Below are positions 25,248 through 52,638 of a stretch of DNA of 59,012 nt, one piece after another. The notes beneath the pieces were generated by a model. It ran no database searches. It saw only the letters and a program-made list of their open reading frames with translations, and was not told where the DNA came from. Every line of letters starts with the position of its first letter. Position 1 is the first letter of the stretch. Source of the stretch: Candidatus Daviesbacteria bacterium (GTDB lineage Bacteria > Patescibacteriota > Microgenomatia > Daviesbacterales > UBA10151); assembly GCA_016195715.1 (NCBI GenBank), contig JACPZA010000032.1, forward strand, positions 1 to 59,012, in the 5' to 3' direction. The translations under genes and the position numbers were made by a program.

Positions 25248-25678
25248 ATCTTTATTGTATAGCTTAAGTTTTAAATAGCCAACTCTTATGGATGGTTGAC
25301 TTATAGATTCTAATAGTTTAAAATCTTTTTTGTTCCAAAATTTGGAGCAGACTGGAGCAAGTTCCAACTCAAGAAAGAATACTACTCATTCAGTTTAGAC
25401 CAGATAGGGTCTCTTCGAATTAATCGGAGTCATAGTTCTTTAACAACCGAAATAGTTTCCACTTTTTCGGTTTTTTTGTGCCCGAAGAAGTGGTGGGAAA
25501 TTTTTGATAAGTAAGTCAACTTGTCAATTCCGAGCAAGCTACAATCGTAACACTTTAAATAAGTGCTGCGAGGAAGAGCTTTGCTCATTCCAAAAAACAA
25601 CAATGAATTCTGTATTTTTTTAAATGCAGTGTTTTTCTGTTTCAGGAAATTTAAAAAGAAATCTTTTGATTTCTTTCT

Positions 25679-25721
<43 letters not shown>

Positions 25722-26688
25722 TAAGCATGCAAGTCGAATGGTCGCAAGACAATGGCGGACGGGTGAGTAACGCGTGGGAATCTACCTTGAAGTGGGGTAT
25801 AGCTTGCCGAAAGGCGAGGTAATACCGCATATGATCGTAAGATCAAAGTCGCAAGACGCTTTAAGATGAGCCTGCGTCCTATCAGCTAGTTGGTGGGGTA
25901 ATGGCCTACCAAGGCAACGACGGGTAGCTGGTCTGAGAGGATGGTCAGCCACAATGGAACTGAGACACGGTCCATACATCTACGGATGGCAGCAACTGGG
26001 AATATTGCGCAATGGGCGAAAGCCTGACGCAGCGACGCCGCGTGGAGGATTGAAGGCCCTCGGGTTGTAAACTCCTTTTATGTGGGAAGATTATGACGGT
26101 ACCACAAGAATAAGCACCTGCTAACTACGTGCCAGAAGCCTCGGTAATACGTAGGGTGCAAGCGTTATCCGGATTCATTGGGCGTAAAGAGTTGCGTAGG
26201 CTGTCCGATGCATTTTGTTTGAAAAGCTATAGCTTAACTATAGTTTCGGGCAAAATATGATCGGACTAGAAGGATTAAGAGGGTATTGGAACCGATTATG
26301 TAGCAGTGAAATGCGTTGATATGATCGGGAACACCAAAGGCGTAGGCAGATACCTGGTAATCCCTTGACGCTGAGGCACGAAAGCTTGGGGAGCGAAGCA
26401 GATTAGAGACCTGCGTAGTCCAAGCTGTAAACTATCTTCGCTAGATACCCGAAATTTTTTGGGTGTCGTAAGCTAACGCGTTAAGCGAAGCGCCTGGGGA
26501 GTACGATCGCAAGATTAAAACTCAAAGGAATTGACGGGGAGGCGCACAAGCAGTGGAGCGTGTGGTTTAATTCGAAACAAAGCGAAAAACCTCACCAGGG
26601 TTTGACATGCAAATGCTAATCCCATGAAAGTGGGACTCCTTCGAGGGTTTTGCACAGATGCTGCATGGCTGTCGTCAGCTCGTGGCGT

Positions 26689-27524
26689 GGGATCTGAAAT
26701 AAGATCAATCGCGCCCACCTACAGTAATGTAGGATGGAAAATTTGGCTCATATCGGTGAAGCAATTGACTTTCGGGTTATCTTAGGATAATCTAAAATCA
26801 TGTAATACCGAGGGAAGTCAGGAGTATGATATTTACAGCTCGTAAAAACCTAAAACTTGAAGTTTCTAATCGTCAAATAGAAATTCTTGTTGGTTGTTTG
26901 CTCGGTGATGCCTATCTAACTAAGTTAGGTAAAATTCAAATTGAGCAATCAGCGAAACAAAAAGAGTATATAGATTGGAAATATCAAGAACTTGCCTCTA
27001 TTAGCTATTCCCAACCTAAAATAGTTATCCGTTTTGAAAAAAACGAAAGTCGAGAAACTAAGTCATTAAGATTTTGGACTCGTCAATATTTTAGAAAATG
27101 GAGAAATAGTTTTTATCAAGGAAATCGCAAAGTTTTCCCAAAAGATTTGATTGAATGGATAACTCCTTTGGCCGTTGCCGTTTGGTATATGGATGATGGT
27201 TGTTATCAGAAATTTGATTGTACTTTATCTACAGAGTCATTTGATTTTGAAAGTAGGGAACAATTGATCAATAAATTTCAGTCTTTTGGAGTAGAGGCGA
27301 TTCCTAGAGGAAAAGGTAAGTTAAGGATTAAATCTAAAAGTTTAATCAAGTTTTTTGAGCTAATTAATCCTTATATGCATTCGAGTATGAGGTATAAACT
27401 TCCTTGACCCCGTAACGACTAATATGTGAGGTACTAGATAATCTAGAAGTAAACTTACATTATACGCCGAACATCCTTTATTAGGATGAAGGGATAGTCT
27501 AAATGTTGTCGTAAGACAATTTTG
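26689..27524 (+). mobile_element. 836-nt group I intron after the E. coli U1078 equivalent
   Basis: Exons rejoin as GCTCGTGGCGT|GAGCTGTACCGTTAAGTC. The 5' exon ends in U pairing with IGS GCGCC (26711-26715) through U.G. P7 is GACTA (about 27416) with TAGTC (about 27495); terminal G at 27524. Confidence 0.9.
26826..27407 (+). CDS. Intron-encoded LAGLIDADG homing endonuclease (LAGLIDADG_2 type)
   Basis: ILVGCLLGDA and LAVWYMDDG motifs; lies between the intron Q-like and R elements. Confidence 0.9.
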   Translation: MIFTARKNLKLEVSNRQIEILVGCLLGDAYLTKLGKIQIEQSAKQKEYIDWKYQELASISYSQPKIVIRFEKNESRETKSLRFWTRQYFRKWRNSFYQGNRKVFPKDLIEWITPLAVAVWYMDDGCYQKFDCTLSTESFDFESREQLINKFQSFGVEAIPRGKGKLRIKSKSLIKFFELINPYMHSSMRYKLP

Positions 27525-28148
27525 GAGCTGTACCGTTAAGTCGGGAAACGAGCGCAACCCGCACCGTATGTTAAATAGTTCATGCGGAACTGCCTCATTT
27601 TTTGAGGAGGAAGGCGCGGATGACGTCAAGTCAGCACGGCTCTTACACCCTGGGCTACACACACCCTACAATGGATAGTCACAACGAGTTGCAAACGGGT
27701 AACCGTAAGCTAACCTCTTAAAACTATCCTCAGTTCGGATTGAGGTCTGCAACCTGACCTCATGAAGTCGGAATTGCTAGTAATCGCGAATCAGCATGTC
27801 GCGGTGAATACGTTCTCGCCTCTTGTACACACCGCCCGTCAAGGCAGCAAAGTTGGGGGCACCCGAATCCCGGATTTATTCGGGAGAAGGTGAAACCAGC
27901 GATGAAGCTTAAGTCGTAACAAGGTATCCCTAGCCGAAGCTGGGGATGGATCACCTCCTTTCTGGAGTTTTGATTAAGCTGGAGGATTTCATAAAACCCC
28001 GCGGAGCTTTTAGCAAAGTGGGGAATGATAGCCATAGGCTTAGTCCATGATCACCTTCACGCTAGATCTAAGTAATTAGAGCTAAATGGTGATAGAAGTT
28101 TGAGAGTCTTCTTTAAAAAGCTCTCCCCACCACTTTTTTGGACACAAA

Positions 28149-28178
28149 AAAGCCTCCAAAAGGAGGCTTTAGTTTTTT
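28149..28178. terminator. Bidirectional intrinsic terminator after 16S
   Basis: AAAGCCTCC-AAAA-GGAGGCTTT flanked by A and T runs. Confidence 0.85.
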
Positions 28179-28200
28179 TATATTAAGACTTTAAAAAACT

Positions 28201-28470
28201 CTAAAGATTATTTGGATCTAAATTTTGATTAAAATCCTCAGGGCTAGCTTGATCCATCGATTGTTCCATTTTATTCAACTCAGCATTTACATCCTCGCTC
28301 ACCGGTCCATTTAGATCTTGAGATTGATTTGAATTTTGATATGAATTTTTTACTATTGGTTGTTGATAAGTTCCAGTTGTTGAATAGGGATTATTTTTGC
28401 TTTGCATTAAAAAATACCCAGCAACTAAAACTAAAGCAATAACAACTATTGTAACTGCTAATTTATTCAT
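28201..28470 (-). CDS. Small membrane-anchored protein (paralog pair, copy 2)
   Basis: N-terminal TM, Asn/Gln-rich linker, C-terminal ELNKMEQSMDQASPEDFN; SD AGGGGTGA. Confidence 0.75.
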   Translation of the reverse strand: MNKLAVTIVVIALVLVAGYFLMQSKNNPYSTTGTYQQPIVKNSYQNSNQSQDLNGPVSEDVNAELNKMEQSMDQASPEDFNQNLDPNNL

Positions 28471-28495
28471 AATATCACCCCTTTCTTTTATGGTA

Positions 28496-28747
28496 CTAAA
28501 TATTCCCGCTTGCTAAGTCTGGATCATTAAAATCATCAGGATTAGCTTGATTCATTAATTTATCTAGTCTTTGTAGCTCTGTACCTGGATCATTACTGGG
28601 TTGATTATTAATATCAGATTGACTGTTATAAGTTGGATTGTAGTTTGTGGTAGGGGAATATGAACTTTGGTTTTGTTTAATTACTAAAAAGTAAACAGCT
28701 AAAACGAGTACAATTATTAGAACTATAGGTAGAAGTAGTTTGCTCAT
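28496..28747 (-). CDS. Small membrane-anchored protein (paralog pair, copy 1)
   Basis: N-terminal TM; C-terminal ELQRLDKLMNQANPDDFN. Confidence 0.75.
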   Translation of the reverse strand: MSKLLLPIVLIIVLVLAVYFLVIKQNQSSYSPTTNYNPTYNSQSDINNQPSNDPGTELQRLDKLMNQANPDDFNDPDLASGNI

Positions 28748-28793
28748 TTATTTAATCTCCATATAAATTATACATATAAAAACAATTAACTTC

Positions 28794-28833
28794 AAGAAAA
28801 GTGGTTCCCATTTCTGGGAACCACTCTCTTTTT
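28794..28833. terminator. Intrinsic terminator hairpin
   Basis: GTGGTTCCCA-TTTC-TGGGAACCAC with A/T-rich flanks. Confidence 0.8.
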
Positions 28834-34128: not shown

Positions 34129-34639
34129 CTAGTCTAAATAATCTCTAAATTTTTGTAAAACTGCTAGATTTCTCAGCTTAAGCAGAGCTACTCTTTCAAT
34201 TTGATAAACTCTATCTCTGCCAATTGCTAATTCCTCACCAACTTCTCTTAAAGTCATTTCTGGTTTGCCATTTAAACCAAACCTCATTTTTATAACTTGT
34301 TGTTCTCTGGTTAGCTTGTAGATTAGGATCTACTAACTCTTTTTTAGCTGTCACTCCTCGTTCTAAATCTTGAGCTAATTTAATTTCTTCTCTAGCTGTT
34401 AGTAAAGGGATTCTAGAAATCTCATTCAAATAAAGAGCTAAAGGAGTTAGTAATTCATCATCATCTTCAGCTTGTCTTTGAACAGGCCTTTTTTGTACTA
34501 ATAATACAAGAGGTCTAGCAGCCTCAGTAATTGGATCACCTCCTTCAATATTTTGGTAGTGTCTAAAACCATTTACTAAAGCTGGAGCTGGTTCAACCTC
34601 AGTAAATAATAAGCCATTTGGTTCAAATTCTGCAGTCAT
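34129..34639 (-). pseudogene. Internally deleted sigma70 paralog: region 1.2 joined out of frame to region 4; regions 2-3 absent
   Basis: Frame 1 encodes LALYLNEISRIPLLTAREEIKLA. The +1 frame from about 34308 encodes REQQVIKMRFGLNGKPEMTLREVGEELAIGRDRVYQIERVALLKLR..RDYLD, stop at 34129. Confidence 0.85.
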
Positions 34640-34668: not shown

Positions 34669-35658
34669 CTAAATTAGATATTTAGTCCACCTAGCAAAAA
34701 TTCCAGTGGATAATAATCTGTTGCCAGAACTCTCTTTTAAAGCCAGCTCTCCAGATTCAATTTGTCCCCCCAAAGAACCTACAAAATCCTTTAAAATATT
34801 TTCTAGCATTAAAGATGAAGAAGAAATAGCATAAGCATTAACTATTACAAATAGCGGGTTAGGAGAGAGAAGTTGGGTGCAAATATCTAAAAGCTCTGGG
34901 AAGTTTTTATTAAAATCCCACACTTCACCCTTTGGTCCATGCCCATAAATTGGTGGATCCATTAAAATTCCATCATATTTCACGCCTCTTTTTAACTCTC
35001 TTTGAACAAACTTTAAGCAATCATCTAGAATCCAGCGAATCGGTTTGCCTTCTAAGTTAGAAAGCTTTTGATTTTCCCTGGCCCAACCAATAGTGGGGTA
35101 AGAGCCGTCAACATGAGTGACTTTTGCTCCAGCTTTGGCTGCAACTAAAGAGGCAATACCAGTATAGCCAAAAAGATTTAGGATATTAGGTTGATCTAGA
35201 CGGGGTCCTGCCAGCTCGCAGCCCCATTCGACCTCCTCGGATGCACTGCGGGGGCTCAATGGGGCGCCCCGCTTGCTGTCACCCCTCTGCAGCCTTTTCT
35301 GAATTAATTCATTTATCCACTCCCAATGAACAGCTTGTTCTGGGAAAACACCAGTGTGTTTAAAAGGGGAAAGCTTAATTTGAAAAGATATATCCTGATA
35401 GTTTATAACCCATTTTTCAGGTATATTTTTTACTCGCTTCCAAATACCTCTTATGTTAGGGCTTTTAGGGCTGTTTGGAGATGAAGTACTATAAATTGCG
35501 TCAGCTTTTTGCCACTTTGACTTAGCTAATTTTGGTTTCCAAATAATTTGCGGATCTGGTCTAACTAAAACAAATTTGCCAAACCTCTCCAGCCTTTTTC
35601 CATCACCAGAATCTAGTAATTCATAGTCTGATAAGGAATTTGAGGCCAGTATTTTCAT
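34669..35658 (-). CDS. Class I SAM-dependent methyltransferase (RlmI/RlmK-related), start MKILAS at 35658, with an in-frame insertion
   Basis: YELLDSG..RLERFG, TGVFPEQ, LNLFGYTG and DPP..G motifs; TAATG coupling to the sigma factor stop. Confidence 0.85.
   Translation of the reverse strand: MKILASNSLSDYELLDSGDGKRLERFGKFVLVRPDPQIIWKPKLAKSKWQKADAIYSTSSPNSPKSPNIRGIWKRVKNIPEKWVINYQDISFQIKLSPFKHTGVFPEQAVHWEWINELIQKRLQRGDSKRGAPLSPRSASEEVEWGCELAGPRLDQPNILNLFGYTGIASLVAAKAGAKVTHVDGSYPTIGWARENQKLSNLEGKPIRWILDDCLKFVQRELKRGVKYDGILMDPPIYGHGPKGEVWDFNKNFPELLDICTQLLSPNPLFVIVNAYAISSSSLMLENILKDFVGSLGGQIESGELALKESSGNRLLSTGIFARWTKYLI
35200..35284. repeat. GC-rich structured intragenic element, copy 1 (antisense to the host CDS)
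   Basis: 74/82 nt identical to 51570-51651; read as GDSKRGAPLSPRSASEEVEWGCELAGPR inside the methyltransferase. Confidence 0.9.
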
Positions 35659-37208
35659 TAGTCTATGTATTCTCTTAATTTGCATGCTTGAGCTGGTAGG
35701 CGTAATGCAGTGAATGCCTCAGATTCAATTTGTCTAACTCTTTCTCTTGAAACACCTAATTCTTCTCCAACTTCGCCTAAAGTTCTTTCTCTGCCATCAA
35801 TTAAACCATATCTCAGGCGAATAACTGCTCTTTGTCTAGGAGTTAAAGAGTCTAGAACATCCGCTAACTCATCCCTTAGCCTTCTTTTCGTGACAAGCTC
35901 TACCACGGTGGGCGCATTGCGATCCGCAAGCAGATCAGCCCAAGTTAAATCATCTTGTTCTTTAATTGGAGCGTCTAAAGAAACTGTTTGTTTCTTTGCT
36001 GCCCTTATTTTAGTAATTTGCTCTAGAGTAGTGTCTAAAGCTTTGGCTAACTCCTGATTAGTTGGATTTCTGCCTAATGCTCCTCTAAGTTGACTTTCTG
36101 CACCACCTAGCTTACCAATGGCTTCTACCATATGGACTGGTATTCTAATAGTTCGGGATTTTTCCGCTATAGCTCTTGTAGCAGCTTGTCTGATCCACCA
36201 ATAGGCATAAGTTGAGAATCTATAACCTCGCCTCCAGTCGTATTTTTCAACTGCCCGTCTTAAACCAATATTTCCTTCTTGAACTAGATCTAAAAACTCA
36301 AAACCTCGTCCTAAATATTTTCTAGCTACTGATATAACAAGTCTTAAGTTACTTTCAGTTAATCTCCTTCTGGCCTCATCAGATAAGTTTACATATTCTG
36401 CTAATTGCATATTCTGAGATTGATCTAGACCTGCTCCAGCTAATTGAATTCTAGCTGTTTCACCAATTTCAATAGTCTTAGCTAAAGCAACCTCTTGTTC
36501 AGCTGTTAAAAGCGGAGCTTGTGATGCATCTCTTAAATATAAAGCCGCAATATCACCTGGGTCATCTTCTGGAAGGTTACTTAAGCTAAATTCGCGCTCT
36601 AGTGCTTGTAATTCTTCAGAGTTTGGTTCATCCTCTGCTAGTTCTAAATCATCATTTTCTTGATCAAAACCATTTAAAGATTGACTATGTAACTCTTCAG
36701 CAGGTATTTTTCTTAATAGAGAGGTCAGGGTTAGTTTTTCTATACCATTTTTATGATCAACATGATCTCCTAAAAACCAAGCTCGTAATAAAGCGACATC
36801 TTCAGGCAGGTCTGAAGGATTTAGATCATCTAATTTTAATTTCTCATAACCATCCATAATGCCTTTTAAAATATTAGATCCATTTGTGGTTCTGCTGGAT
36901 CTAACTAAACGTTGGTTATTATAAGTTTCTATTAGAGAACCATGGAAATCCCGGACGATGTCATCAATTGTTGGATAGTAATAGTCGCCTTCATCATTAC
37001 TAGATGCTGCAGCGACAAAGCTCAAAAGTCCGTATGGTGTATAGCCTCTTCTTTTTCTGGCTAGTAAGATAGTATTTTTTAGTTCAGGCGCCTTTATATC
37101 AAAAATTGTCGGTAAAATCCTAAGCGGACTAAGCTTAGTTGAACTTACAGCATCAGCTATATAAGCTGCTAGTCTTGGTGGATATAGCCTCTCATGCACT
37201 AGTGACAT
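35658..37208 (-). CDS. RpoD-like sigma70 factor with atypical N-terminal extension
   Basis: Region 1.2 LYLRD..PLLT, NLRLVISVA, DLVQEGNIGL, FSTYAYWWIRQA, RTIRIPVH and region 4 TLGEVG..VSRERVRQIE. Confidence 0.93.
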   Translation of the reverse strand: MSLVHERLYPPRLAAYIADAVSSTKLSPLRILPTIFDIKAPELKNTILLARKRRGYTPYGLLSFVAAASSNDEGDYYYPTIDDIVRDFHGSLIETYNNQRLVRSSRTTNGSNILKGIMDGYEKLKLDDLNPSDLPEDVALLRAWFLGDHVDHKNGIEKLTLTSLLRKIPAEELHSQSLNGFDQENDDLELAEDEPNSEELQALEREFSLSNLPEDDPGDIAALYLRDASQAPLLTAEQEVALAKTIEIGETARIQLAGAGLDQSQNMQLAEYVNLSDEARRRLTESNLRLVISVARKYLGRGFEFLDLVQEGNIGLRRAVEKYDWRRGYRFSTYAYWWIRQAATRAIAEKSRTIRIPVHMVEAIGKLGGAESQLRGALGRNPTNQELAKALDTTLEQITKIRAAKKQTVSLDAPIKEQDDLTWADLLADRNAPTVVELVTKRRLRDELADVLDSLTPRQRAVIRLRYGLIDGRERTLGEVGEELGVSRERVRQIESEAFTALRLPAQACKLREYID

Positions 37209-38279: not shown

Positions 38280-40685
38280 ATGCCCAGAACTTCAGAGCGA
38301 GGCATTGCTCATCTAATTATCTTATTAATAGTTCTAGTCGGAATTGTTATTGGGGTTTATTTAAGTTTACATCCAACTTTTTTTCTACCTAAAGCCACCC
38401 AACCCAACTTAGCTGAGTCTACTAAATATGGAGTAAACGCTGGTGGAGTAGCCCAATCAGATCCGAAACTAAATGAAGCCTTAAGCTTAGCTTCAAGTGC
38501 TGGCATTGGTTGGATTAGAACTGGAGGCTGTAGCTGGGGTGATGTTTTAAGTAAGGATCCAGGACTTAGCTCTCCAACGCCAACCTCTCCTTGGCCAGCG
38601 GATATTTATCATTTTAGTGGTTGTGATTCTTTTATTAATAATATTGTTAACAATAACCACTTATCACTTTTAACTAACTTTTTTTATTCAACCCCTTGGT
38701 GCACCGCCTCACCTAAAGAAGGAGAATTGAATATCTTAACCAATAAACCAATTGAGGGAGCTGAGGTAGTTAAAGCTGAGCCTTGTGATTACAACAAATT
38801 CTATGATTTTGTCTATAAATTAGTAGCTAGATATGGTTCAACTGCTCACCCAGAACTAGGTTCTGATTATGGCAAAGGTTGGATTAAATATTTTGAAATT
38901 GGTAATGAGCCTGATGGGTCAAGCGGTATGTTGTATTACACTTTTGGTTCACCATCAGCAACAGTCGCACCCTCAGATACGGAAAGAAAAGTAAATATCT
39001 CCTCCCATTATGCTCATATTGTCCAAGTTGCTCATGATGCTATTAAAGCAGCAGATCCTAGCTCTCAAGTTGTATTAGGTGGGTTAATTCAAACTGTAAT
39101 TGGCGGTTCTGATCAACAGTCCACTCACCCAGATGATAATCTGCTTGATCAAATCTTAAACAACCCACCTTACAACAGCGCTCCTTACGACAATCCATAT
39201 CCTGCTGCAAATAACTTTGATATTATGAACTTTCATTGTTATTGCCCAACTTCAACTGCTTCTACAAAACTTACTCAAATTTATGATTCTTTAAAGCAAG
39301 CTGGGGTAGCTAACAAACCAATCTGGGTAACTGAAGTAGGGAGTGGGACAATAGCTGGTCAAACAGTCAGTAGTTTTCCCTGCACTGGCCAACCCGATTC
39401 TAGCGAATGTCAGCAGTCTCAAGCTAATTATTTAAAAGAGATTCTTCCGTACTTTTTAAATGGTACAACTGCCTCTGATGGAACAAAAGTCTCGGCAGAT
39501 AAAGTTTTTTGGTATTCTTTGCTTGATTCTCCAAAAGATGATAGCTCATTTTGTAGCTATGGACTAACTTGGTATGGTTCAACTGATTTTCAATGTGGTG
39601 CGCCGTCAAATCCAAGCAGTTTACCAAATCTGGTTAGCAAACTGGCCTATGCTACTTATCAGAGTTTAATTTTAGGAATTTCACCTCCACCAACTCCTAG
39701 CCCAAAGCCTAGCCTGACTCCAACCCCAGCCCCTAATAATCAAACTAGCTTTAGTCTACAACCTAACGTAGGAACTTATGCTTTAGCTAATCAACTACCA
39801 GTCTCATTACTTGCTAGAGCAGATCAATATAACTCTAATTTATTTGTAGCTAAGATGCATTTTTCTACTAGCACACTTCAAGTTAGTAGTATTAGTTTTA
39901 ATGGTACATTTATTAGACAACAAATTGAGAAAAGCTTTGATAATGTGGCTGGCACAATCTCAATTATTGGTGGGTTTGCAAATCCTGGTTTTAAAACCAG
40001 TGGTGCTCCAGCTTTAATGGCTACAATTAATTTTACCCCTAAAACTACTGGTTCTGGTTCAATTAGTTTTGATCCAAGCTCAAGCATTTTTAGGAATTCT
40101 GATAATGTAAATATTTTAAATTTATCTTTAACAACTGGAGGAAACTATACTTTCAGCTCCGGTGTTCAGCCAACTTCCACACCAACACCCACTCCAAGTC
40201 CTAGCTCTCTTCCAAGATCTACCCCAACTCCTACCCCAACCTCAGCTTCTTCCTTGTTCTCAACTTCCACTCCAACACCCACCCCGACTCAATTTAACTT
40301 TTTTCAAGGAGGAGATCAGACTTCAACTTCAACTCCAACTCCAACCGATGCATCTTTCATAGTTAATAATTTTACTCCAACACCCACACCAACTACTTCG
40401 GATAATTTCTTTATCCCTCCAACACCTACACCAACTTCTACTGCTAATTTCTTAGCCCCCACATCCACCCCAACCAGCGTTAAAGTTTCTTTAAAACCAT
40501 CTTCTTCTCCTAAAGCTCCTGTTTCTTTATCACCATTTGTTTTTAAACCATTACAAACTCCAGCTCCTTTAGTTAGACCAACACCTACTCCTAAACCACA
40601 ACTTAATCCTATTCAAGAAATCTTAGTAGGTATTGAATCATTCTTTTCTTCAATACTAAATATCTTTACCTCACCTTTTAAATAA
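38280..40685 (+). CDS. Clan GH-A glycoside hydrolase (GH39/GH5-like) with cohesin-like domain and Pro/Thr repeats
   Basis: IGNEPD (acid/base), MNFHCY, WVTEVG (nucleophile); N-terminal ERG|IAHL plus hydrophobic helix. Confidence 0.75.
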   Translation: MPRTSERGIAHLIILLIVLVGIVIGVYLSLHPTFFLPKATQPNLAESTKYGVNAGGVAQSDPKLNEALSLASSAGIGWIRTGGCSWGDVLSKDPGLSSPTPTSPWPADIYHFSGCDSFINNIVNNNHLSLLTNFFYSTPWCTASPKEGELNILTNKPIEGAEVVKAEPCDYNKFYDFVYKLVARYGSTAHPELGSDYGKGWIKYFEIGNEPDGSSGMLYYTFGSPSATVAPSDTERKVNISSHYAHIVQVAHDAIKAADPSSQVVLGGLIQTVIGGSDQQSTHPDDNLLDQILNNPPYNSAPYDNPYPAANNFDIMNFHCYCPTSTASTKLTQIYDSLKQAGVANKPIWVTEVGSGTIAGQTVSSFPCTGQPDSSECQQSQANYLKEILPYFLNGTTASDGTKVSADKVFWYSLLDSPKDDSSFCSYGLTWYGSTDFQCGAPSNPSSLPNLVSKLAYATYQSLILGISPPPTPSPKPSLTPTPAPNNQTSFSLQPNVGTYALANQLPVSLLARADQYNSNLFVAKMHFSTSTLQVSSISFNGTFIRQQIEKSFDNVAGTISIIGGFANPGFKTSGAPALMATINFTPKTTGSGSISFDPSSSIFRNSDNVNILNLSLTTGGNYTFSSGVQPTSTPTPTPSPSSLPRSTPTPTPTSASSLFSTSTPTPTPTQFNFFQGGDQTSTSTPTPTDASFIVNNFTPTPTPTTSDNFFIPPTPTPTSTANFLAPTSTPTSVKVSLKPSSSPKAPVSLSPFVFKPLQTPAPLVRPTPTPKPQLNPIQEILVGIESFFSSILNIFTSPFK

Positions 40686-40721: not shown

Positions 40722-42524
40722 ATGCCTAAATTAAATCAAGCTGGGGGAATGCCACTTTTAGTTCTACTTTCTGTAGTTGGAATAATTATTTTTTTAGTAG
40801 TCTCATCAACTGCTTCTTTTAAAGATAAATTGTTTGGTAATTTATATCAAAAACCTCAATCATTAGGTGCAACCAGTGGAGATAAATATGGAGTTAATGC
40901 TGGTGGAGTAGTCCAAAATGATCCTCAATATAATAGTGCCCTAGCTTTAGCATCAACTGCTGGTATTGGTTGGTTAAGAACTGGGGGTTGCGCTTGGGGT
41001 ACAGTTTTAGCCAGTGACCCTGGCGGATCTCCACCTTATCCAGCCAGTAAGTACAACTGGAATAACTGTGATTCTTTTATTAATAATATTGTTAACAATA
41101 ACCACCTATCACTTTTAACTAACTTCTTTTATTCCACCCCTTGGTGTACTGCTTCACCTCCTCAGGATTCAACTAATATTATTACTGGTCAAGCTATTGA
41201 TGGAGCAGCTGTGGTTAAAGCCGAACCATGTGATTATGAAAAATTTAAAGATTTTGTGACTAAACTGGTGGCTAGATATGGCTATACCGCCCACCCGGAA
41301 TATGGATCTGATTATGGTAAGGGCTGGGTTAAATATTGGGAGATAGGCAATGAACCAGATGGTTCTGGAGCAATGCTTTACTATACAGCTGGTTCACCCC
41401 CGCCAACAGTAGCTCCAACTGATACAGAAAGAGAAGTAAATATCTCCTCACATTATGCTCATATTGTCCAAGTTGCTCATGATGCTATTAAAGCAGCAGA
41501 TCCTAGCTCTCAAGTTGTATTAGGAGGGATGATTCTACCGGTTAGTGGTGGTTCAGATCAACAAACTAATCATCCTGACAATAATTTATTAGATCAGATC
41601 TTAAAAAATCCACCATATAATGTTCCCCCATATGATCAATCCAATCCGGCTGCAAATAACTTTGATATTATGAACTTTCATTGTTATTGCCCAACTTCAA
41701 CTGCTTCTACAAAACTTACTCAAATTTATAACTCTCTTAAAACAGCTGGGGTAGGGAGTAAACCTATCTGGATAACTGAGGTGGGTAGTGGTACTAAAAA
41801 TGGTCAAACTACCTCAGGTTATTCTTGCCCATCCGGTCAAGATAATTCAACTACTTGTCAGCAGTCTCAAGCTAATTATCTAACCACGATTGTTCCTTAT
41901 TTTTTAAATGGTGTAACAGCTTCAGATGGAACTTTAGTTAAAGCGGATAAAGTTTTTTGGTACTCTTTATTTGATTCTCCCGCTGATAGTAGTGGGTTTT
42001 GTAGTTATGGATTAGTTTGGTATGGAGCATCAAATTTTCAATGTGGGGTTTATCCAAATCCTACTCCTAATCCACTGCCAACTTTGGCTACTAAATTATC
42101 CTTTGCTAGTTATCAAAGCTTAATTGGTCCAAGTGTTACTTCAACTCCCACCCCAACTCCAACTAGCTCTTTACTTGCAACTCCAACCCCAGATACTGGT
42201 TTAATTGCTAGCCCAACACCCACGCCCACAGCTGGTAATTTATCTGGTTTTGTAAGTGATTCGACAAATCCTAATTCAACAACTAATCCTAATGCTCCTG
42301 CAGATAGTCAAACTAACTCAGCTTCAGCTACTGCTACACCTGTTCCATCTCCTACCCCAGCCTCGTTTATTTTCTTACCAAATTTAGGAAATTTGTCTTT
42401 TACCAGATCTGGTGACTCGAGTGATTCAGGTTTACCTAAAGCCTCAATTACTGATTTGATACCAGCAGTAGGTCAATTCTTTAAAACCTTAAGTAGTTTT
42501 GTTAACTCTATTATCAAAAGATAA
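40722..42524 (+). CDS. Tandem paralog GH-A glycoside hydrolase with Ser/Thr/Pro tail
   Basis: WEIGNEPD and WITEVG; clear homology to 38280..40685. Confidence 0.75.
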   Translation: MPKLNQAGGMPLLVLLSVVGIIIFLVVSSTASFKDKLFGNLYQKPQSLGATSGDKYGVNAGGVVQNDPQYNSALALASTAGIGWLRTGGCAWGTVLASDPGGSPPYPASKYNWNNCDSFINNIVNNNHLSLLTNFFYSTPWCTASPPQDSTNIITGQAIDGAAVVKAEPCDYEKFKDFVTKLVARYGYTAHPEYGSDYGKGWVKYWEIGNEPDGSGAMLYYTAGSPPPTVAPTDTEREVNISSHYAHIVQVAHDAIKAADPSSQVVLGGMILPVSGGSDQQTNHPDNNLLDQILKNPPYNVPPYDQSNPAANNFDIMNFHCYCPTSTASTKLTQIYNSLKTAGVGSKPIWITEVGSGTKNGQTTSGYSCPSGQDNSTTCQQSQANYLTTIVPYFLNGVTASDGTLVKADKVFWYSLFDSPADSSGFCSYGLVWYGASNFQCGVYPNPTPNPLPTLATKLSFASYQSLIGPSVTSTPTPTPTSSLLATPTPDTGLIASPTPTPTAGNLSGFVSDSTNPNSTTNPNAPADSQTNSASATATPVPSPTPASFIFLPNLGNLSFTRSGDSSDSGLPKASITDLIPAVGQFFKTLSSFVNSIIKR

Positions 42525-50176: not shown

Positions 50177-51157
50177 ATGGCAGCAGAATCTTTAAAATTT
50201 CATGATTATCCCAAGCTAAGAGTAATTGAGCCCATTCAACCGACTACAAGCTTAAACGGAGCTTTGAGACAAAAAACTTTGGGAACTAGACAAAGAGTCG
50301 TTAGTTTGCTTGCAGAAAACATCCCTTATTTTTCTGGAGCACAAGGAGCAAATAGGCTTTCGGACGCATGCGGTTGGGGAACTTTGGCGGCAACAGCACT
50401 TAGTACAAGTTTAAACTTAACTCAAGGTAAAATACCTCATCTTGCTAAAACAGGCCTTATTTTTAGTACTCTTGGTCCGGCTCTAGCTATTGACGCTTTA
50501 GATGGAGAGTTAGCTAGAAAATTTAGAAATAAATATCGAGAAGAAAAACTTTCAGCAAATGGAGAGTTAAAACCGCACGATGAAGAATTTCTTAAGCAGC
50601 ACGAAATTGCTGGAGCAATTCGCGATAATGGATGGGATAGGGAACTGGAAGCTGCTATGGCTGGAGCCAGGCTTTGGGTTGCATTAGATAAGATGTCAAA
50701 AGCTAAAGGCGCTTTGAAGATTTATTATGGTTTTGGGGCTGCAGCTGCAGCAATCTCCATGATTGTTAGACCCAAGACAAGTTTAGCCAGAGCAGAAGCA
50801 GAGAAAGTATATAAAATTGTTCCAGAAACAGAAGCAGGAGCTGCCAGATTAGGCAATCGTGAAGGAGCAGCGATGGTTGCAATAATTGCTCATGCCCTGC
50901 CGGAAGTTCAACCTTTATTAGATGCAGTTTGTGCTGGTTCAAGCCTTATTAGTTCTAAGCATAGAATGGAAATAGTCAGGGTTGGTCAGGCAGTTGATTT
51001 AGAGCGTTTAACTCCAGCCGAAAGAAGGAAAATGGAGATAAAACGCCAGATTGCCCCAACTAAAATTGCTGATGCTAGGTTTTATCAATCATTAGGTTTA
51101 TTAGGTGCAGTGGGAGTTCCAGCAACTTATTTTATTATTTCAAGATTTAGAAGATAA
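50177..51157 (+). CDS. Divergent CDP-alcohol phosphatidyltransferase-like membrane protein
   Basis: DALDGELAR and GAIRDNGWD match DxxDGxxAR...GxxxDxxxD with a long spacer. Confidence 0.55.
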   Translation: MAAESLKFHDYPKLRVIEPIQPTTSLNGALRQKTLGTRQRVVSLLAENIPYFSGAQGANRLSDACGWGTLAATALSTSLNLTQGKIPHLAKTGLIFSTLGPALAIDALDGELARKFRNKYREEKLSANGELKPHDEEFLKQHEIAGAIRDNGWDRELEAAMAGARLWVALDKMSKAKGALKIYYGFGAAAAAISMIVRPKTSLARAEAEKVYKIVPETEAGAARLGNREGAAMVAIIAHALPEVQPLLDAVCAGSSLISSKHRMEIVRVGQAVDLERLTPAERRKMEIKRQIAPTKIADARFYQSLGLLGAVGVPATYFIISRFRR

Positions 51158-51177: not shown

Positions 51178-52638
51178 ATGCCAAAGGTATCTTCTATTTT
51201 TGTTTGTCAGCAATGTGGCTACCAATCACCAACATATTTAGGTAGATGTCCTGAGTGTCAAAGTTGGAACTCATTTGTTGAGCAAATCTCTCAAATTAGT
51301 ATTTCTCATTCTAAATCCACTAAACTCAAAGAGTTAAAAAATGCCGAAGTTATTCAGCTAAAAGATTTAAATCAAGATCACTATGATAGATTAAGTTCTA
51401 GTATCTTAGAGTTTGATAGGGTTTTAGGGGGAGGAATTGTTAGGGGATCTTTGGTGTTACTGGCTGGTGATCCAGGCATTGGAAAGTCTACTTTGCTATC
51501 ACAATTGGCGATCAATCTGGCCGCTCCTGGTGCAACTGAGCAACGGGGTCCTGTCACCTCTATCAAAGCGGGTCCTGCCGACTCACAGCCCCATTCGACC
51601 TCCTCGGATGCACTGCGGGGGCTCAATGGGACGCCCCGTTCGTCGTCACCCGCTACTTCTGTGTTAATCTCAAAGCAAGTTCTTTATATTGCTGGGGAAG
51701 AGTCAGCCCAGCAAATTAAATTAAGGATCGACAGGATCAAAAAAGGCGCCAGTTTCGCTATTTTAAATGAAGTCGATGTTGATATTATAACTGGAGTGAT
51801 TGAACAACTTAAACCAGCTTTAGTAATTGTGGACTCAATTCAAACACTTAAAACTTCAGATTTAGAATCAGCACCTGGTTCAGTAGGGCAAGTTAGAGAG
51901 TCTGCTCAAAGATTGCAAACCATTGCCAAAAAACTACACATTCCAATTTTTTTAGTTGGTCATGTAACTAAAGAAGGTACAGTAGCTGGACCAAAAACCC
52001 TAGAACACTTAGTTGATGTAGTTTTATCACTAGAGGGTGAAGAGACTAGTCAGTTTCGAGTTTTAAGAGCTAATAAAAATCGTTTTGGTCCAACTGATGA
52101 GGTGGGAATATTTGAGATGGATGAAACTGGGATGGTTGAGGTTAAAAACCCCTCTAAAATCTTTTTAGAACAAAAAGTTAATGCACCAGGTTCAGCTGTG
52201 GTAGCAATCTTAACAGGTCTTAGGCCAATTTTGCTGGAGATTCAGGCTTTGGTGACCAAAACTAACTTAGCTTTCCCTAGAAGGGTGGGAAATGGGATAG
52301 ATAATAATAGGTTGCAACTTTTAGTAGCTGTTTTGAGCAAGCGTTTAAATTTAAATTTATTTGATAAAGATGTATTTATAAATGTCACAGGTGGGATGAA
52401 AATTTTTGAACCAGCTGTAGATTTAGCAATTTGCATGGCGATTGTCTCTTCATTTAAAGACAAAGCGATTAATCCTAAGTTAGTATTTATTGGAGAAGTA
52501 GGACTTTTGGGTGAACTTAGAGCAGTTCGGCAAATGAGTAAACGAACTCAAGAAGCCAAAGCATTGGGATTTAGTAAAGTTATTTCCAGTGATAATGCTA
52601 AGTCGCTAACTGAAGCTTTGAGGCTATCTTTGAGTTAA
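51178..52638 (+). CDS. radA: DNA repair protein RadA/Sms with an approximately 45-aa in-frame insertion
   Basis: CQQC/CPEC Zn finger, GDPGIGKST, VDSIQT, KNRFG and Lon-like C-terminus GEVGLLGE. Confidence 0.96.
   Translation: MPKVSSIFVCQQCGYQSPTYLGRCPECQSWNSFVEQISQISISHSKSTKLKELKNAEVIQLKDLNQDHYDRLSSSILEFDRVLGGGIVRGSLVLLAGDPGIGKSTLLSQLAINLAAPGATEQRGPVTSIKAGPADSQPHSTSSDALRGLNGTPRSSSPATSVLISKQVLYIAGEESAQQIKLRIDRIKKGASFAILNEVDVDIITGVIEQLKPALVIVDSIQTLKTSDLESAPGSVGQVRESAQRLQTIAKKLHIPIFLVGHVTKEGTVAGPKTLEHLVDVVLSLEGEETSQFRVLRANKNRFGPTDEVGIFEMDETGMVEVKNPSKIFLEQKVNAPGSAVVAILTGLRPILLEIQALVTKTNLAFPRRVGNGIDNNRLQLLVAVLSKRLNLNLFDKDVFINVTGGMKIFEPAVDLAICMAIVSSFKDKAINPKLVFIGEVGLLGELRAVRQMSKRTQEAKALGFSKVISSDNAKSLTEALRLSLS
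51570..51651. repeat. GC-rich structured intragenic element, copy 2 (sense to the host CDS), preceded by a deletion derivative at 51543-51558
   Basis: 45-nt perfectly identical core with copy 1; read as GPADSQPHSTSSDALRGLNGTPRSSSP. Confidence 0.9.

What the first reader, a model, noticed from the sequence alone, without database searches (positions are those of the whole stretch)
35200..35284. Structured 82-nt element inserted in-frame in two unrelated proteins, in opposite orientations, with compensatory base changes
Seen: 35203-35284 and 51570-51651 share 74/82 nt, including a 45-nt identical core, and are strongly GC-rich in an AT-rich genome. All 8 differences are transitions. Six form three compensatory pairs in one stem: A35213-T35277 becomes G-C, G35214-C35276 becomes A-T, and G35218-C35272 becomes A-T. 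An inner GCCCCATT/AATGGGGC stem encloses an imperfect CCTCGG-ATGCA-CTGCGG hairpin. One copy is read antisense in a loop of the methyltransferase just before LNLFGYTG; the other is read sense in RadA between the Walker A helix and VLYIAGEES. Both keep the frame open. Established: Rickettsia palindromic elements insert in-frame in CDSs, and HUH/Y1 (RAYT, IS200/IS605 TnpA) enzymes recognise imperfect hairpins. Inference: an undescribed non-autonomous mobile structured element family in CPR, selected on structure rather than peptide and tolerated as a protein loop.
Basis: partly seen in the sequence, partly recalled or inferred. Interest (0 to 1): 0.87.

Follow-up and report, generated by a model that had tools for sequence, protein, structure and literature searches.

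The report
Translated hairpin repeat in CPR genes
Two housekeeping genes of a tiny groundwater bacterium (Candidatus Daviesbacteria) each carry, in frame, a copy of a ~90-base GC-rich hairpin-forming selfish DNA repeat; the family has almost invariant ends and occurs in hundreds of places in at least eight bacterial phyla, so it is a new family of a known kind of element (like the Rickettsia palindromic elements and REPINs), not a new kind.

Summary
35203-35284 and 51570-51651 are direct copies (74/82 identical, 45-nt identical core, 68% GC in a 36.5% GC window). Both are in frame: antisense in an RlmI-like rRNA methyltransferase, sense in RadA. The three compensated pairs are correct, and there is a fourth (35202/35285 against 51569/51652).

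The copies belong to a large family with conserved ends, (T)CGGGGTCCTGCC ... GTCACCCCTC(G). Members occur in Patescibacteria, Omnitrophota, Elusimicrobiota, Planctomycetota, Legionella-like Gammaproteobacteria, Rokubacteria, Nitrospirota and Bacillota.

- About two thirds of copies are intergenic. In low-GC CPR contigs many sit in frame in unrelated housekeeping genes.
- The stems covary strongly and almost only through Watson-Crick pairs.
- Most orthologues have empty sites, and both sites are insertion hotspots.
- Copies within a genome are far more alike than copies between genomes.
- Orientation follows GC skew, not transcription.
- A copy in another organism's glycosyltransferase shows that window copy 2 is a mosaic.

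I found no transposase. It is most likely a non-autonomous, REPIN/RPE-like hairpin element. It is absent from Rfam and from the papers I searched, but earlier notes of this scan report a similar ~93-base repeat in this genome.

The parts
35198..35290 (+). Copy 1 of the hairpin element (conserved core 35201-35287: CGGGGTCCTGCC...GTCACCCCTC), read antisense inside the methyltransferase gene as RGDSKRGAPLSPRSASEEVEWGCELAGPR
   Evidence: Direct repeat D7. nhmmer match to the family profile at 35198-35290, E 6e-11. Folds as one long hairpin.
51565..51657 (+). Copy 2 of the element (core 51568-51654, variant ends GCGGGTCCTGCC...GTCACCCGCT), read in sense inside radA as AGPADSQPHSTSSDALRGLNGTPRSSSPA
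   Evidence: E 1.4e-7. The outer 26 + 25 nt are identical to the copy in locus L246, and the centre is identical to copy 1.
51543..51558 (+). Collapsed copy: left end ACGGGGTCCTG joined directly to right end TCACC(-)TCT, 10-15 nt upstream of copy 2
   Evidence: Sequence and an 11-nt blastn match to the left end of copy 1. Collapsed copies of the same kind occur at the same RadA site in L247 and L248.
35202..35206 (+). 5' strand of the conserved terminal helix GGGGT, pairing with ACCCC at 35281-35285. In copy 2 the outermost pair is changed on both sides (C51569-G51652).
   Evidence: The helix is invariant in the sample by ascertainment.
35207..35211 (+). Conserved asymmetric internal loop CCTGC, opposite TC at 35279-35280
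   Evidence: Family alignment and anchor-register analysis.
35212..35219 (+). Stem 1, 5' arm, pairing with 35271-35278.
   Evidence: Across the family the stem-1 pairs are 59-93% paired against 37-65% expected, using four Watson-Crick types. Covariation score is 0.409 against 0.133 when shuffled, 0 of 500 shuffles reaching it.
35219..35263 (+). The 45-nt core identical in both window copies (= 51586-51630). Contains stem 2 (GCCCCATT 35221-35228 with AATGGGGC 35258-35265) and the apical imperfect hairpin 35230-35256 with the conserved YCUC/GCGR duplex.
   Evidence: In run X1 the core is a separate 45-nt unitig at depth 10 against about 5 for the flanks, which fits about two genomic copies of this exact core.
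34669..35685 (-). Host gene 1: RlmI-like class I SAM-dependent rRNA methyltransferase (338-aa ORF, called as 329 aa)
   Evidence: Homologues are named 23S rRNA (cytosine1962-C5)-methyltransferase and carry PF10672. Most orthologues have no insert at this site. The AlphaFold2 model has mean pLDDT 88.7, and the insert is coil with pLDDT 42-53.
51178..52638 (+). Host gene 2: radA/sms (486 aa, against 431-440 aa in most orthologues)
   Evidence: In 73 of 120 orthologues the site between the Walker A helix and LYVAGEES holds only two residues.

Best explanation
The two 82-nt segments are copies of a non-autonomous, hairpin-forming mobile DNA repeat of about 87-105 nt.

**Anatomy (shown).**
- A 2-3 bp basal stem.
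- A UC/UC internal loop.
- An invariant GGGGT/ACCCC helix.
- A conserved asymmetric loop (CCTGC opposite TC).
- A covarying 7-bp stem.
- A second asymmetric loop carrying a C-run on the 3' arm.
- A second stem.
- An apical hairpin holding a conserved duplex with a T.G and a T.C pair.

**Behaviour (shown).**
- The family is multi-copy within genomes and present in many phyla.
- It is usually intergenic. In gene-dense CPR genomes it also survives inside genes.
- It is GC-rich and five of its six frames have no stop in the conserved parts.
- Copies that add a multiple of three bases in a permissive surface loop are simply translated. Here that is the loop before motif I of the methyltransferase and the loop after the Walker A helix of RadA.

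**Mechanism (inferred).**
- The element is moved in trans by an enzyme that recognises one folded single strand at the replication fork, in the manner of IS200/IS605 TnpA or of RAYT acting on REPINs.
- The conserved sub-terminal loop would be the recognition or cleavage site.

**Fate of copies (after insertion).**
- They exchange segments by gene conversion or recombination (inferred). Window copy 2 is a mosaic (shown).
- They may keep their arms complementary partly through template-switch correction (inferred).
- They decay by internal deletion of the hairpin, which leaves only the two ends as collapsed copies (seen).
For: **Family and fold.**
209 of 243 matches fold as one long hairpin.
- Positions not fixed by the pattern are still at least 90% conserved: the T before, the GT before CACCCC, and the G after.

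**Covariation.**
- 82.7% of cells are paired against 65.4 +/- 0.7 in shuffles. There are 466 cells changed on both sides against 192. The covariation score is 0.409 against 0.133 (0 of 500 shuffles), and slid controls reach at most 0.150.
- One-sided (wobble) changes number 1-4 per pair, against 28-68 two-sided changes.

**Mobility.**
- RadA: 73 of 120 orthologues have an empty site. Family-type inserts sit in at least four separate clades whose sisters are empty.
- Methyltransferase: most orthologues are empty, and one (L244) carries a different subfamily at the same site.
- Interior identity within an assembly has median 0.86, against 0.57 between assemblies.
- The copy-2 subtype, with its unusual ends, also lies in a GT4 glycosyltransferase of another organism.

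**Hosts of in-frame copies.** UvrD, ribosomal protein L1, DinB, DnaX, PolA, TopA, TsaD, an aminoacyl-tRNA synthetase, the CCA-adding enzyme, carbamoyl-phosphate synthase, IleRS and GT4.

**Frame filter.**
- The core length is a multiple of three in 24 of 35 coding copies, against 24 of 59 non-coding copies.
- The antisense-0 frame is closed by a TGA and is never used.

**Not tied to transcription.** 23 copies lie in sense and 27 in antisense inside genes. Between co-directional genes the counts are 23 and 19.

**Tied to strand composition.**
- The strand carrying the element in sense has G>C in 78 of 113 loci (p = 6e-5).
- After regressing on gene-strand bias the intercept is +0.033 +/- 0.007 (t = 4.6).
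- All three window copies lie on the G-rich + strand.
- IS200/IS605 elements show such a bias towards the lagging-strand template (PMC5027513).

**Loop tolerance.** See the AlphaFold2 model.

**Collapsed copies.** Window 51543-51558, L247 and L248.
Against: **No mover found.**
- None in 30 window ORFs.
- None among gene families recurring near about 200 copies.
- None between paired copies.
- No small nuclease ORF beside copies.

**No direct sign of movement.**
- No target-site duplication could be defined.
- No empty allele or excision product was seen. Only low-depth contigs were available, not reads.

**Limits of the sample.**
- Conservation of the ends is partly forced by the search pattern.
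- Phylum labels come from MAG record titles.
- Gene calls in the loci are crude ORF calls.
- GC skew of 5-14 kb pieces is only a proxy for replication direction, and loci from one genome are not independent.
- The RadA tree has no support values.

**Points that do not fit simply.**
- The complement of the strand that I call sense is the more stable fold in 132 of 134 copies. Which strand is active is therefore open.
- Orthologues 61-67% identical in protein carry family copies at the same two sites. Part of the pattern could therefore be old insertion plus concerted evolution, not fresh transposition.
Confidence: 0.75

Rival explanations
1. It is a classical cut-and-paste MITE: a deletion derivative of an insertion sequence. 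A DDE transposase would recognise its double-stranded terminal inverted repeats (GGGGT.../...ACCCC), and the TC dinucleotides on both sides would be a 2-bp target duplication.
For: - The ends are imperfect inverted repeats beginning with GGGGT.
- TC flanks the terminal helix on both sides in most copies.
- The element is small, non-coding and multi-copy within genomes.
Against: - The right TC and the left C were fixed by my search pattern, so a duplication cannot be judged.
- 2-3 bases outside the TC still covary as pairs (81%, 74% and 54% paired against 62%, 39% and 39% expected). Random target DNA would not do this.
- Conserved asymmetric loops and conserved non-Watson-Crick pairs point to recognition of one folded strand.
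- Orientation is biased with respect to GC skew.
- No parent IS with these ends and no cargo-bearing version occurs in 1.75 Mb of loci.
Confidence: 0.12
2. The copies do not transpose at all. Certain protein loops and intergenic gaps hold old resident hairpins, and these are rewritten by gene conversion or cassette exchange from other copies in the same genome. Similarity within a genome would then reflect concerted evolution only.
For: - Window copy 2 is a mosaic. Its ends match L246 and its centre matches copy 1.
- Family copies of different subfamilies occupy the same RadA and methyltransferase sites in orthologues 61-67% identical.
- Copies are more alike within assemblies than between them.
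Against: - Conversion needs a resident copy, so it cannot explain how unrelated genes acquired one.
- Most orthologues have clean empty sites, and sisters of filled RadA genes are empty.
- The copy-2 subtype lies in different genes in two organisms.
- Conversion and transposition are not exclusive. I take conversion as an added process.
Confidence: 0.1
3. It is a functional structured RNA: a cis-regulatory or processing element, or a small RNA gene. Its structure would be kept by selection at the RNA level, and the copies inside genes would be accidental.
For: - There is strong structural covariation, with conserved internal loops and a conserved apical duplex holding a U.G and a U.C pair.
- Many copies abut gene ends within 5-50 nt.
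- The + strand RNA folds of the two window copies score better than shuffles (z = -2.9 and -2.4).
Against: - Orientation relative to flanking or host genes is symmetric: 23 against 27 inside genes, 23 against 19 between co-directional genes. Half the copies would therefore be transcribed as the complement.
- G.U intermediates are almost absent among covarying pairs, which is unusual for RNA.
- No Rfam family matches, even at E up to 10 for the window copy and up to 1 for 17 loci.
- Several copies per genome sit in unrelated contexts, and collapsed, decaying copies exist.
- No RNA run holding the organism could be found, so this rival was not tested directly.
Confidence: 0.08
4. The inserts are lineage-specific protein loops kept for a protein function, and the nucleotide similarity is a by-product. 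Alternatively, they are assembly chimeras.
For: Both inserts keep the frame open and lie in surface loops.
Against: - The two copies are read on opposite strands and give unrelated peptides.
- Family copies are read in four different frames.
- About two thirds of copies are not inside long ORFs.
- Both junctions of both copies are seen in four independent runs.
Confidence: 0.02

Closest known systems
REPINs (REP doublets forming hairpins) with their RAYT transposases (Bertels & Rainey 2011, PMC3116915)
   Same: - Unit of about 80-100 nt.
- Two highly conserved end regions in inverted orientation.
- A less conserved spacer whose key properties are its length and its ability to form a hairpin, with common compensatory changes.
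- Non-autonomous and multi-copy.
- Singlets or remnants arise by decay.
- Proposed single-strand mechanism related to IS200/IS605.
   Different: - REPs are themselves small palindromes and are extragenic. Here the ends are not palindromes and a third of the sampled copies lie inside genes.
- No RAYT was found near any copy.
- REPIN-RAYT systems are described within proteobacterial and cyanobacterial genomes. These ends recur in at least eight phyla.
- A conserved 3-5 nt bulge and a conserved apical duplex are extra features.
Rickettsia palindromic elements, RPE-1 to RPE-10 (Ogata et al. 2000, as summarised in PMC10969869 and PMC2229807)
   Same: - Palindromic repeats that form one long stem-loop.
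- Found both between genes and in frame inside many unrelated conserved genes, where they are translated as extra peptide segments.
- Mover unknown and target duplication uncertain.
- Occur in reduced genomes.
   Different: - RPEs are 105-146 bp and specific to Rickettsia. This family is 87-105 nt.
- It has a different sequence as far as I can tell; no RPE consensus was at hand for a direct comparison.
- It is GC-rich in AT-rich hosts.
- It is spread over many phyla.
IS200/IS605-family ends and their single-strand 'peel and paste' transposition (PMC5027513, PMC6006769)
   Same: - Imperfect sub-terminal hairpins with unpaired bases are what the enzyme recognises.
- Insertion orientation is biased with respect to the replication fork.
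- No terminal inverted repeats of the classical type.
   Different: - Those hairpins are about 20-25 nt at each end of an element that carries tnpA and tnpB. Here the whole element is one hairpin with no gene.
- No TnpA was found.
- No conserved target tetranucleotide was identified.
Bacterial MITEs such as Correia/NEMIS, ERIC, RUP (PMC2229807, PMC10969869)
   Same: Small, non-autonomous, long stem-loop when single-stranded, sometimes fused in frame to ORFs.
   Different: - Those have defined terminal inverted repeats and, where known, TA or other target duplications and a parent IS.
- None of these could be shown here.
Integron attC sites
   Same: - Imperfect palindromes of similar size.
- Conserved ends and a variable centre.
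- Conserved extrahelical bases that mark one folded strand.
   Different: - The R''/R' core sites (RYYYAAC / GTTRRRY) are absent.
- Copies are dispersed singly, not in cassette arrays beside an integrase.

Membership tests
Rickettsia palindromic elements (RPE) | Long palindromic repeat forming one stem-loop, 105-146 bp (PMC2229807) | tested here: inconclusive
   The fold is one long hairpin. The length is 87-105 nt, shorter than the RPE range.
Rickettsia palindromic elements (RPE) | Inserted in frame in many unrelated conserved protein genes as well as between genes | tested here: met
   33 in-frame copies in low-GC loci, in at least 15 kinds of housekeeping gene, plus intergenic copies.
Rickettsia palindromic elements (RPE) | Rickettsia-specific sequence families RPE-1 to RPE-10 | tested here: not met
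   The host is a Daviesbacteria-like CPR bacterium, going by homologue names. The family was found in other phyla. Sequence similarity to RPE consensus sequences was not tested because none was at hand.
REPIN / REP-RAYT | Two conserved inverted end sequences around a variable hairpin spacer with compensatory changes (PMC3116915) | tested here: met
   Conserved 13-nt and 11-nt ends, with a covarying interior.
REPIN / REP-RAYT | A RAYT (Y1 HUH) gene in the genome, flanked by copies | tested here: inconclusive
   None in 30 window ORFs, none among the recurrent neighbours of about 200 copies, and none between paired copies.
REPIN / REP-RAYT | Extragenic location | tested here: not met
   50 of 158 copies in loci below 56% GC lie inside long ORFs. 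Both window copies are intragenic.
Classical MITE | Terminal inverted repeats plus target-site duplication, and a related autonomous IS | tested here: inconclusive
   Imperfect inverted ends (GGGGT) are present. No duplication can be defined, and the flanking TC is partly fixed by the search pattern. No IS and no cargo-bearing version occurs in 1.75 Mb of loci.
IS200/IS605-like single-strand transposition (how it works, not membership) | Orientation bias towards one replication strand | tested here: met
   78 of 113 loci have G>C on the element's sense strand (p = 6e-5). The intercept after correcting for gene strand is +0.033 +/- 0.007. GC skew of short pieces is only a proxy.
IS200/IS605-like single-strand transposition (how it works, not membership) | Y1 HUH transposase acting on the hairpin | not testable with these tools
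   No candidate was found in the DNA held. This needs a whole-genome and phylogenetic-profile search, and then biochemistry.
Integron attC | R''/R' core sites (RYYYAAC ... GTTRRRY) and cassette arrays next to intI | tested here: not met
   The ends are CGGGGTCC ... CACCCCTC. Copies are dispersed, mostly one per 8-kb locus.
Any Rfam RNA family | Match to a curated covariance model | tested here: not met
   No relevant match at E up to 10 for the window copy, or at E up to 1 for 17 loci with canonical copies.

The most novel reading that the evidence does not exclude
The family may be the footprint of an unrecognised, horizontally spreading single-strand DNA transposition system.
- The substrate would be a whole ~90-nt hairpin recognised through a conserved bulged helix.
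- It would act at the replication fork.
- Its enzyme is still unidentified and is shared by Patescibacteria, Omnitrophota, Elusimicrobiota, Planctomycetota and others.
- In CPR bacteria, which have almost no intergenic space, it and its sister families would be a main source of new surface loops in essential proteins.
- Resident copies would be rewritten module by module through gene conversion.
Probability: 0.3. Interest if true: 0.7.

Novelty: new member of a known kind. Interest (0 to 1): 0.5.

Why it matters
- It shows that the 'selfish DNA inside working proteins' pattern known from Rickettsia is common in CPR bacteria. RadA, an rRNA methyltransferase, polymerases, topoisomerase I and tRNA enzymes all carry translated repeat copies.
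- This matters for annotating and modelling CPR proteins. The odd GC-rich, Arg/Gly/Pro/Ser-rich loops are repeat-derived, not functional motifs.
- It warns against reading compensatory changes in DNA hairpins as proof of RNA structure.
- The same 12-nt and 10-nt ends recur in many phyla, and orientation follows the replication strand. Both point to a widespread enzyme that acts on folded single-stranded DNA and has not been linked to these repeats.
- The family gives a precise sequence handle with which to search for that enzyme.

Tried and rejected

**Searches that found nothing or too little.**
- Exact 22-mer from the identical core in genome contigs and metagenome contigs: 0 hits. This subfamily's core is rare and the window's genome is not in those collections.
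- Rfam: nothing.
- Paper search for the end sequences as text strings: only chance matches in unrelated papers.
- Papers linking MITE/REP terms with these phyla: none.
- Viral contigs: a single match, so no sign of a phage vector.
- RNA runs: none listed.
- Reads: only low-depth (about 5x) Logan contigs. No empty alleles or joints appear, and such contigs cannot show absence.
- Profile of the antisense-frame peptide against 1.84 billion proteins: 5 hits. A 35-position profile has too little power.
- RadA insert region against the 5.8-billion-protein set: one other protein, P0241. This turned out to be informative.

**Methods that failed.**
- RNAalifold on the plain MAFFT alignment recovered only the terminal helix, because the interiors are misaligned. 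I replaced it with an anchor-register alignment.

**Ideas rejected or left open.**
- Cargo-bearing versions (ends 150-3000 nt apart): none convincing.
- K-turn reading of the conserved loop on the complementary strand: the tandem G.A pairs do not line up. This was by inspection only.
- Tn3-type ends: both start with GGGGT, but there is no 38-bp inverted repeat and no 5-bp duplication. By inspection, and from memory of Tn3 ends.
Full report
**1. The observation**

The two segments are real.
- The repeat finder lists 35203-35284 and 51570-51651 as an 82-nt direct repeat at 90% identity (family D7).
- A base-by-base comparison gives 8 differences. There is an uninterrupted identical stretch of 45 nt, 35219-35263 = 51586-51630.
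- The segment is 68% GC, against 36.5% for the whole window.
- Both copies are on the + strand of the window.
- Copy 1 lies inside the minus-strand ORF 34669-35685 and is read antisense as RGDSKRGAPLSPRSASEEVEWGCELAGPR.
- Copy 2 lies inside the plus-strand ORF 51178-52638 and is read in sense as AGPADSQPHSTSSDALRGLNGTPRSSSPA.
- The organism is present at about 5x in four groundwater metagenome runs. Contigs from these runs cover both junctions of both copies, so the inserts are not an artefact of this assembly.
- The 45-nt core forms its own unitig at twice the depth of the flanks. This fits two genomic copies of that exact core.

**2. Corrections to the anatomy**

G35202-C35285 in copy 1 is C51569-G51652 in copy 2, a fourth compensated pair.
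- A collapsed third copy lies just upstream of copy 2. At 51543-51558 the left end ACGGGGTCCTG is joined directly to the right end TCACC-TCT.
- Four double-hit pairs among ten changes has a chance probability of about 3e-5.

**3. The host genes and the insertion sites**

*RadA.*
- The plus-strand ORF is RadA/Sms.
- Among its 120 best homologues, nearly all Daviesbacteria-like, most are 431-440 aa against 486 here.
- In 73 of them the site between the Walker A helix and LYVAGEES holds only two residues.
- About a third carry inserts of many unrelated kinds at exactly this site.
- Five carry inserts beginning RGPA(G), which is the translation of CGGGGTCCTGCC.
- DNA of three of these (L001, L002, L003) shows elements with the same ends but very different interiors that still fold as hairpins.

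*Methyltransferase.*
- The minus-strand ORF is an RlmI-like class I SAM-dependent rRNA methyltransferase (PF10672).
- Again most orthologues have no insert at the site, many have unrelated inserts, and one (P0125, locus L244) has a family copy of another subfamily in the same orientation.
- An AlphaFold2 model has mean pLDDT 88.7. It places the insert as coil with pLDDT 42-53, between helix 106-125 and strand 158-162 that leads into the LNLFGYTG motif.

Both sites are therefore permissive loops and insertion hotspots.

*RadA tree.* On a tree built with the insert masked, the family-type inserts fall in at least four separate clades whose sisters are empty. This tree was made with FastTree and has no support values.

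**4. The family**

*Distribution.*
- The shared ends gave a search pattern, CGGGGTCCTGCC-N55-85-CACCCCTC.
It gave one match in viral contigs.
- Of 243 matches, 209 fold as a single long hairpin. The rest are mostly chance matches in high-GC genomes.
- By record title, the real copies come from Daviesbacteria, Levybacteria, Saccharibacteria, Doudnabacteria, Parcubacteria, Omnitrophota, Elusimicrobiota, Planctomycetota, Legionella-like and other Gammaproteobacteria, Rokubacteria, Nitrospirota and a Bacillota MAG.

*Conservation beyond the pattern.*
- Positions that the pattern did not fix are still at least 90% conserved: the T before the left end, the GT before CACCCC and the G after.
- An apical duplex of the type GUSCUC/GCGSGC, with a U.G and a U.C pair, recurs.
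- In an 84-nt subfamily frequent in MAGs labelled Omnitrophota, that duplex is present with its two strands swapped between the arms.

*No prior description found.* No Rfam family matches. I found no paper describing it.

**5. Structure and covariation**

MAFFT misaligns the variable interiors, so I counted pairs by distance from the two conserved ends.
- Positions +1 to +7 after the left end pair with positions -1 to -7 before the right end in 59-93% of 134 non-redundant copies. The expectation is 37-65%. All four Watson-Crick types occur.
- Two to three bases outside a UC/UC loop also pair above expectation.
- On an alignment built in this register, the count of structure pairs gave the following:

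| Measure | Observed | Control |
|---|---|---|
| Cells paired | 82.7% | 65.4 +/- 0.7% (shuffled) |
| Cells changed on both sides | 466 | 192 (shuffled) |
| Covariation score | 0.409 | 0.133 (shuffled, 0 of 500 reach it) |
| Covariation score, slid partners | - | at most 0.150 |

- One-sided (wobble) changes are nearly absent: 1-4 per pair, against 28-68 two-sided changes.
- The complement of the strand that I call sense is the more stable fold in 132 of 134 copies with DNA parameters, because the unpaired bases are pyrimidines on the sense strand.

Near-exclusive Watson-Crick covariation fits a DNA palindrome better than an RNA. It could arise without selection if mismatches in quasi-palindromes are corrected by template switching. 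That mechanism is established for E. coli quasi-palindromes; I cite it from my own knowledge. The loops and mismatches that stay conserved despite this are the parts most likely under constraint.

**6. Genomic behaviour**

*Location.* In loci below 56% GC, 50 of 158 copies lie inside long ORFs. The rest lie in short intergenic gaps, often 5-50 nt from a gene end.

*Orientation to transcription.* It is symmetric:
- 23 sense and 27 antisense inside genes.
- 23 against 19 between co-directional genes.

*In-frame copies in low-GC contigs.*
- 33 copies use four of the six frames.
- The antisense-0 frame is closed by the TGA in GAGGGGTGAC.
- The core length is a multiple of three in 24 of 35 coding copies, against 24 of 59 non-coding copies. 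This is as expected if only frame-preserving insertions survive.
- Hosts include UvrD, L1, DinB, DnaX, PolA, TopA, TsaD, a class I aminoacyl-tRNA synthetase, the CCA-adding enzyme, carbamoyl-phosphate synthase, IleRS and GT4 transferases.

*Similarity within genomes.* Interiors of copies from one assembly have median identity 0.86, against 0.57 between assemblies.

**7. A mosaic copy**

The RadA insert peptide found one other protein, a GT4 glycosyltransferase from a different organism (P0241, locus L246, 44% GC).
- Its element shares the outer 26 nt and 25 nt with window copy 2 exactly. This includes the unusual ends GCGGGT.../...ACCCGC and the copy-2 version of stem 1.
- It differs at about nine positions in the centre.
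- Window copies 1 and 2 have identical centres and different outer stems.

Copy 2 is therefore a mosaic. Two conclusions follow:
- The identical core is best explained by recent conversion or recombination between the two copies in this genome.

It also shows that the ends and stem 1 travel with the element and are not rebuilt from the target.

**8. Decay**

Collapsed copies keep both ends but lack the interior.
- In the window: 51543-51558.
- At the same RadA site in L247: TCTCCTGGTCCTGC-AAAAAAAACT-TCACCCCTCGAGACAGG. Its flanks match those of the full copy in L002.
- In L248, in a rearranged form.

Internal deletion of the hairpin is thus a common fate.

**9. Looking for the mover**

- None of 30 further window ORFs has a transposase, HUH or integrase domain.
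- Clustering all ORFs of about 200 loci gave no recurrent neighbour other than housekeeping genes, several of which are hosts.
- ORFs between paired copies are ordinary genes: ORF6N, L11, ApbE, ParE and thioredoxin reductase.
- No cargo-bearing versions and no small nuclease ORFs lie beside copies.

**10. Orientation and replication**

- With the element itself removed, the strand that carries it in sense has G>C in 78 of 113 loci (p = 6e-5).
- GC skew in these pieces depends strongly on gene strand (r = 0.66). After regression on gene-strand bias the intercept is still +0.033 +/- 0.007 (t = 4.6). In loci with mixed gene orientation the count is 21 against 5.
- The window's + strand, which carries all three copies, has a skew of +0.035.
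- If the G-rich strand is the leading strand, as in most bacteria (established knowledge), the sense strand lies on the lagging-strand template.
- IS200/IS605 elements, which transpose as single strands at the fork, show such a bias (PMC5027513).
- Caveats: short pieces make this only a proxy, and loci from one genome are not independent.

**11. Interpretation**

The best reading is a non-autonomous hairpin repeat.
- Its anatomy is closest to REPINs: two conserved inverted ends, a variable hairpin spacer and common compensatory changes (PMC3116915).
- Its behaviour in CPR genomes is that of the Rickettsia palindromic elements: in-frame, translated insertions in many conserved genes (PMC10969869, PMC2229807).
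- Shown: family membership, structural conservation, empty sites, hotspots, similarity within genomes, the mosaic, the collapse and the strand bias.
- Inferred: transposition through a folded single strand by an enzyme acting in trans.
- It is not a member of the RPE families (different host, size and distribution). REPIN membership fails on extragenic location and is undecided on RAYT.

**12. Earlier notes of this scan**

- A follow-up on another window of the same genome (e1-801306) described an in-frame ~93-base GC-rich hairpin repeat in nfo and called it RPE-like. My results agree and extend it.
- A first-reader note on gyrA (e1-801307) mentions the shared GGGGTCCTG string. I could not check it.
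- A first-reader note on the compound RadA insert (e1-5218936) is confirmed.
- Other notes (e1-1105951, e1-693978) report hairpin families with cross-phylum ends. The GIY-YIG idea of the latter found no support here.

**13. Verdict**

It is a new family of a known kind of element. The cross-phylum ends and the replication-strand bias are the most interesting open leads.

Noticed in passing
window 26826-27407 (+), within the ORF-poor stretch about 25400-28800: An ORF of 193 aa matches LAGLIDADG_2 homing endonuclease (PF03161, E 1e-33). The region otherwise lacks long ORFs. It may be an intron-encoded endonuclease in an rRNA gene, as is common in CPR bacteria.
   Followed up: no
RadA site (window 51520-51680) and methyltransferase site (window 35190-35300), compared with orthologues: Both loops are hotspots for several other, unrelated insert families. 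One recurs as ...VIARSEATKQSK.EIA.LPSVARNDG... in RadA of P0035, P0051 and P0085 and in methyltransferases P0178, P0217 and P0232.
   Followed up: partly
run X3, contig record 10 laid on window 35016-35284 and 51570-51950: One 568-nt Logan contig joins the left flank of the methyltransferase copy, through the element, to the right flank of the RadA copy. It is most likely an assembly cross-over through the 45-nt identical core at 4x depth. Recombination between the two direct copies, which would delete 16.4 kb, would look the same.
   Followed up: no
window 50177-51157 (+): A 326-aa ORF with no Pfam match sits between the S1-domain gene and radA. In relatives L001, L002, L003 and L247 the S1 gene is followed directly by radA. 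It looks like an inserted gene.
   Followed up: no
window about 35458-35475 (-), methyltransferase residues 62-67 of the 329-aa form: There is a second low-confidence segment in the AlphaFold2 model (pLDDT below 50), with sequence STSSPNSPKSPN. It may be another short lineage-specific insert.
   Followed up: no
window 38280-40685 and 40722-42524 (+): Two tandem paralogous genes (801 and 600 aa) share 75-83% identical DNA blocks at a spacing of about 2445 nt. Both carry Pro/Thr-rich linker repeats (families D1-D6).
   Followed up: no
window 34235-34639 (-) and 35658-37208 (-): A 134-aa ORF with only sigma-70 region 1.2 (PF00140) lies downstream of the methyltransferase gene. A 516-aa RpoD-like ORF lies upstream of it and overlaps it by 28 nt. 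The small ORF may be a fragment or a separate small sigma-related protein.
   Followed up: no
loci L029, L049, L103, L157, L227 and others (84-nt subfamily): In this subfamily, frequent in MAGs labelled Omnitrophota (L157 and L227 are metagenome loci without a taxon label), the conserved apical duplex (CUGCGGGC ... GUCCUCGG) has its two strands swapped between the 5' and 3' arms compared with the CPR copies (GUCCUCG ... CUGCGGGC). The duplex seems to work in either polarity within the hairpin.
   Followed up: partly
loci L014, L022, L107 (Legionella-like MAG and relatives): Here the element is embedded in a larger repeat. Copies about 400 nt apart have identical flanks (acttttgcgcgt ... cattgccattg).
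   Followed up: no
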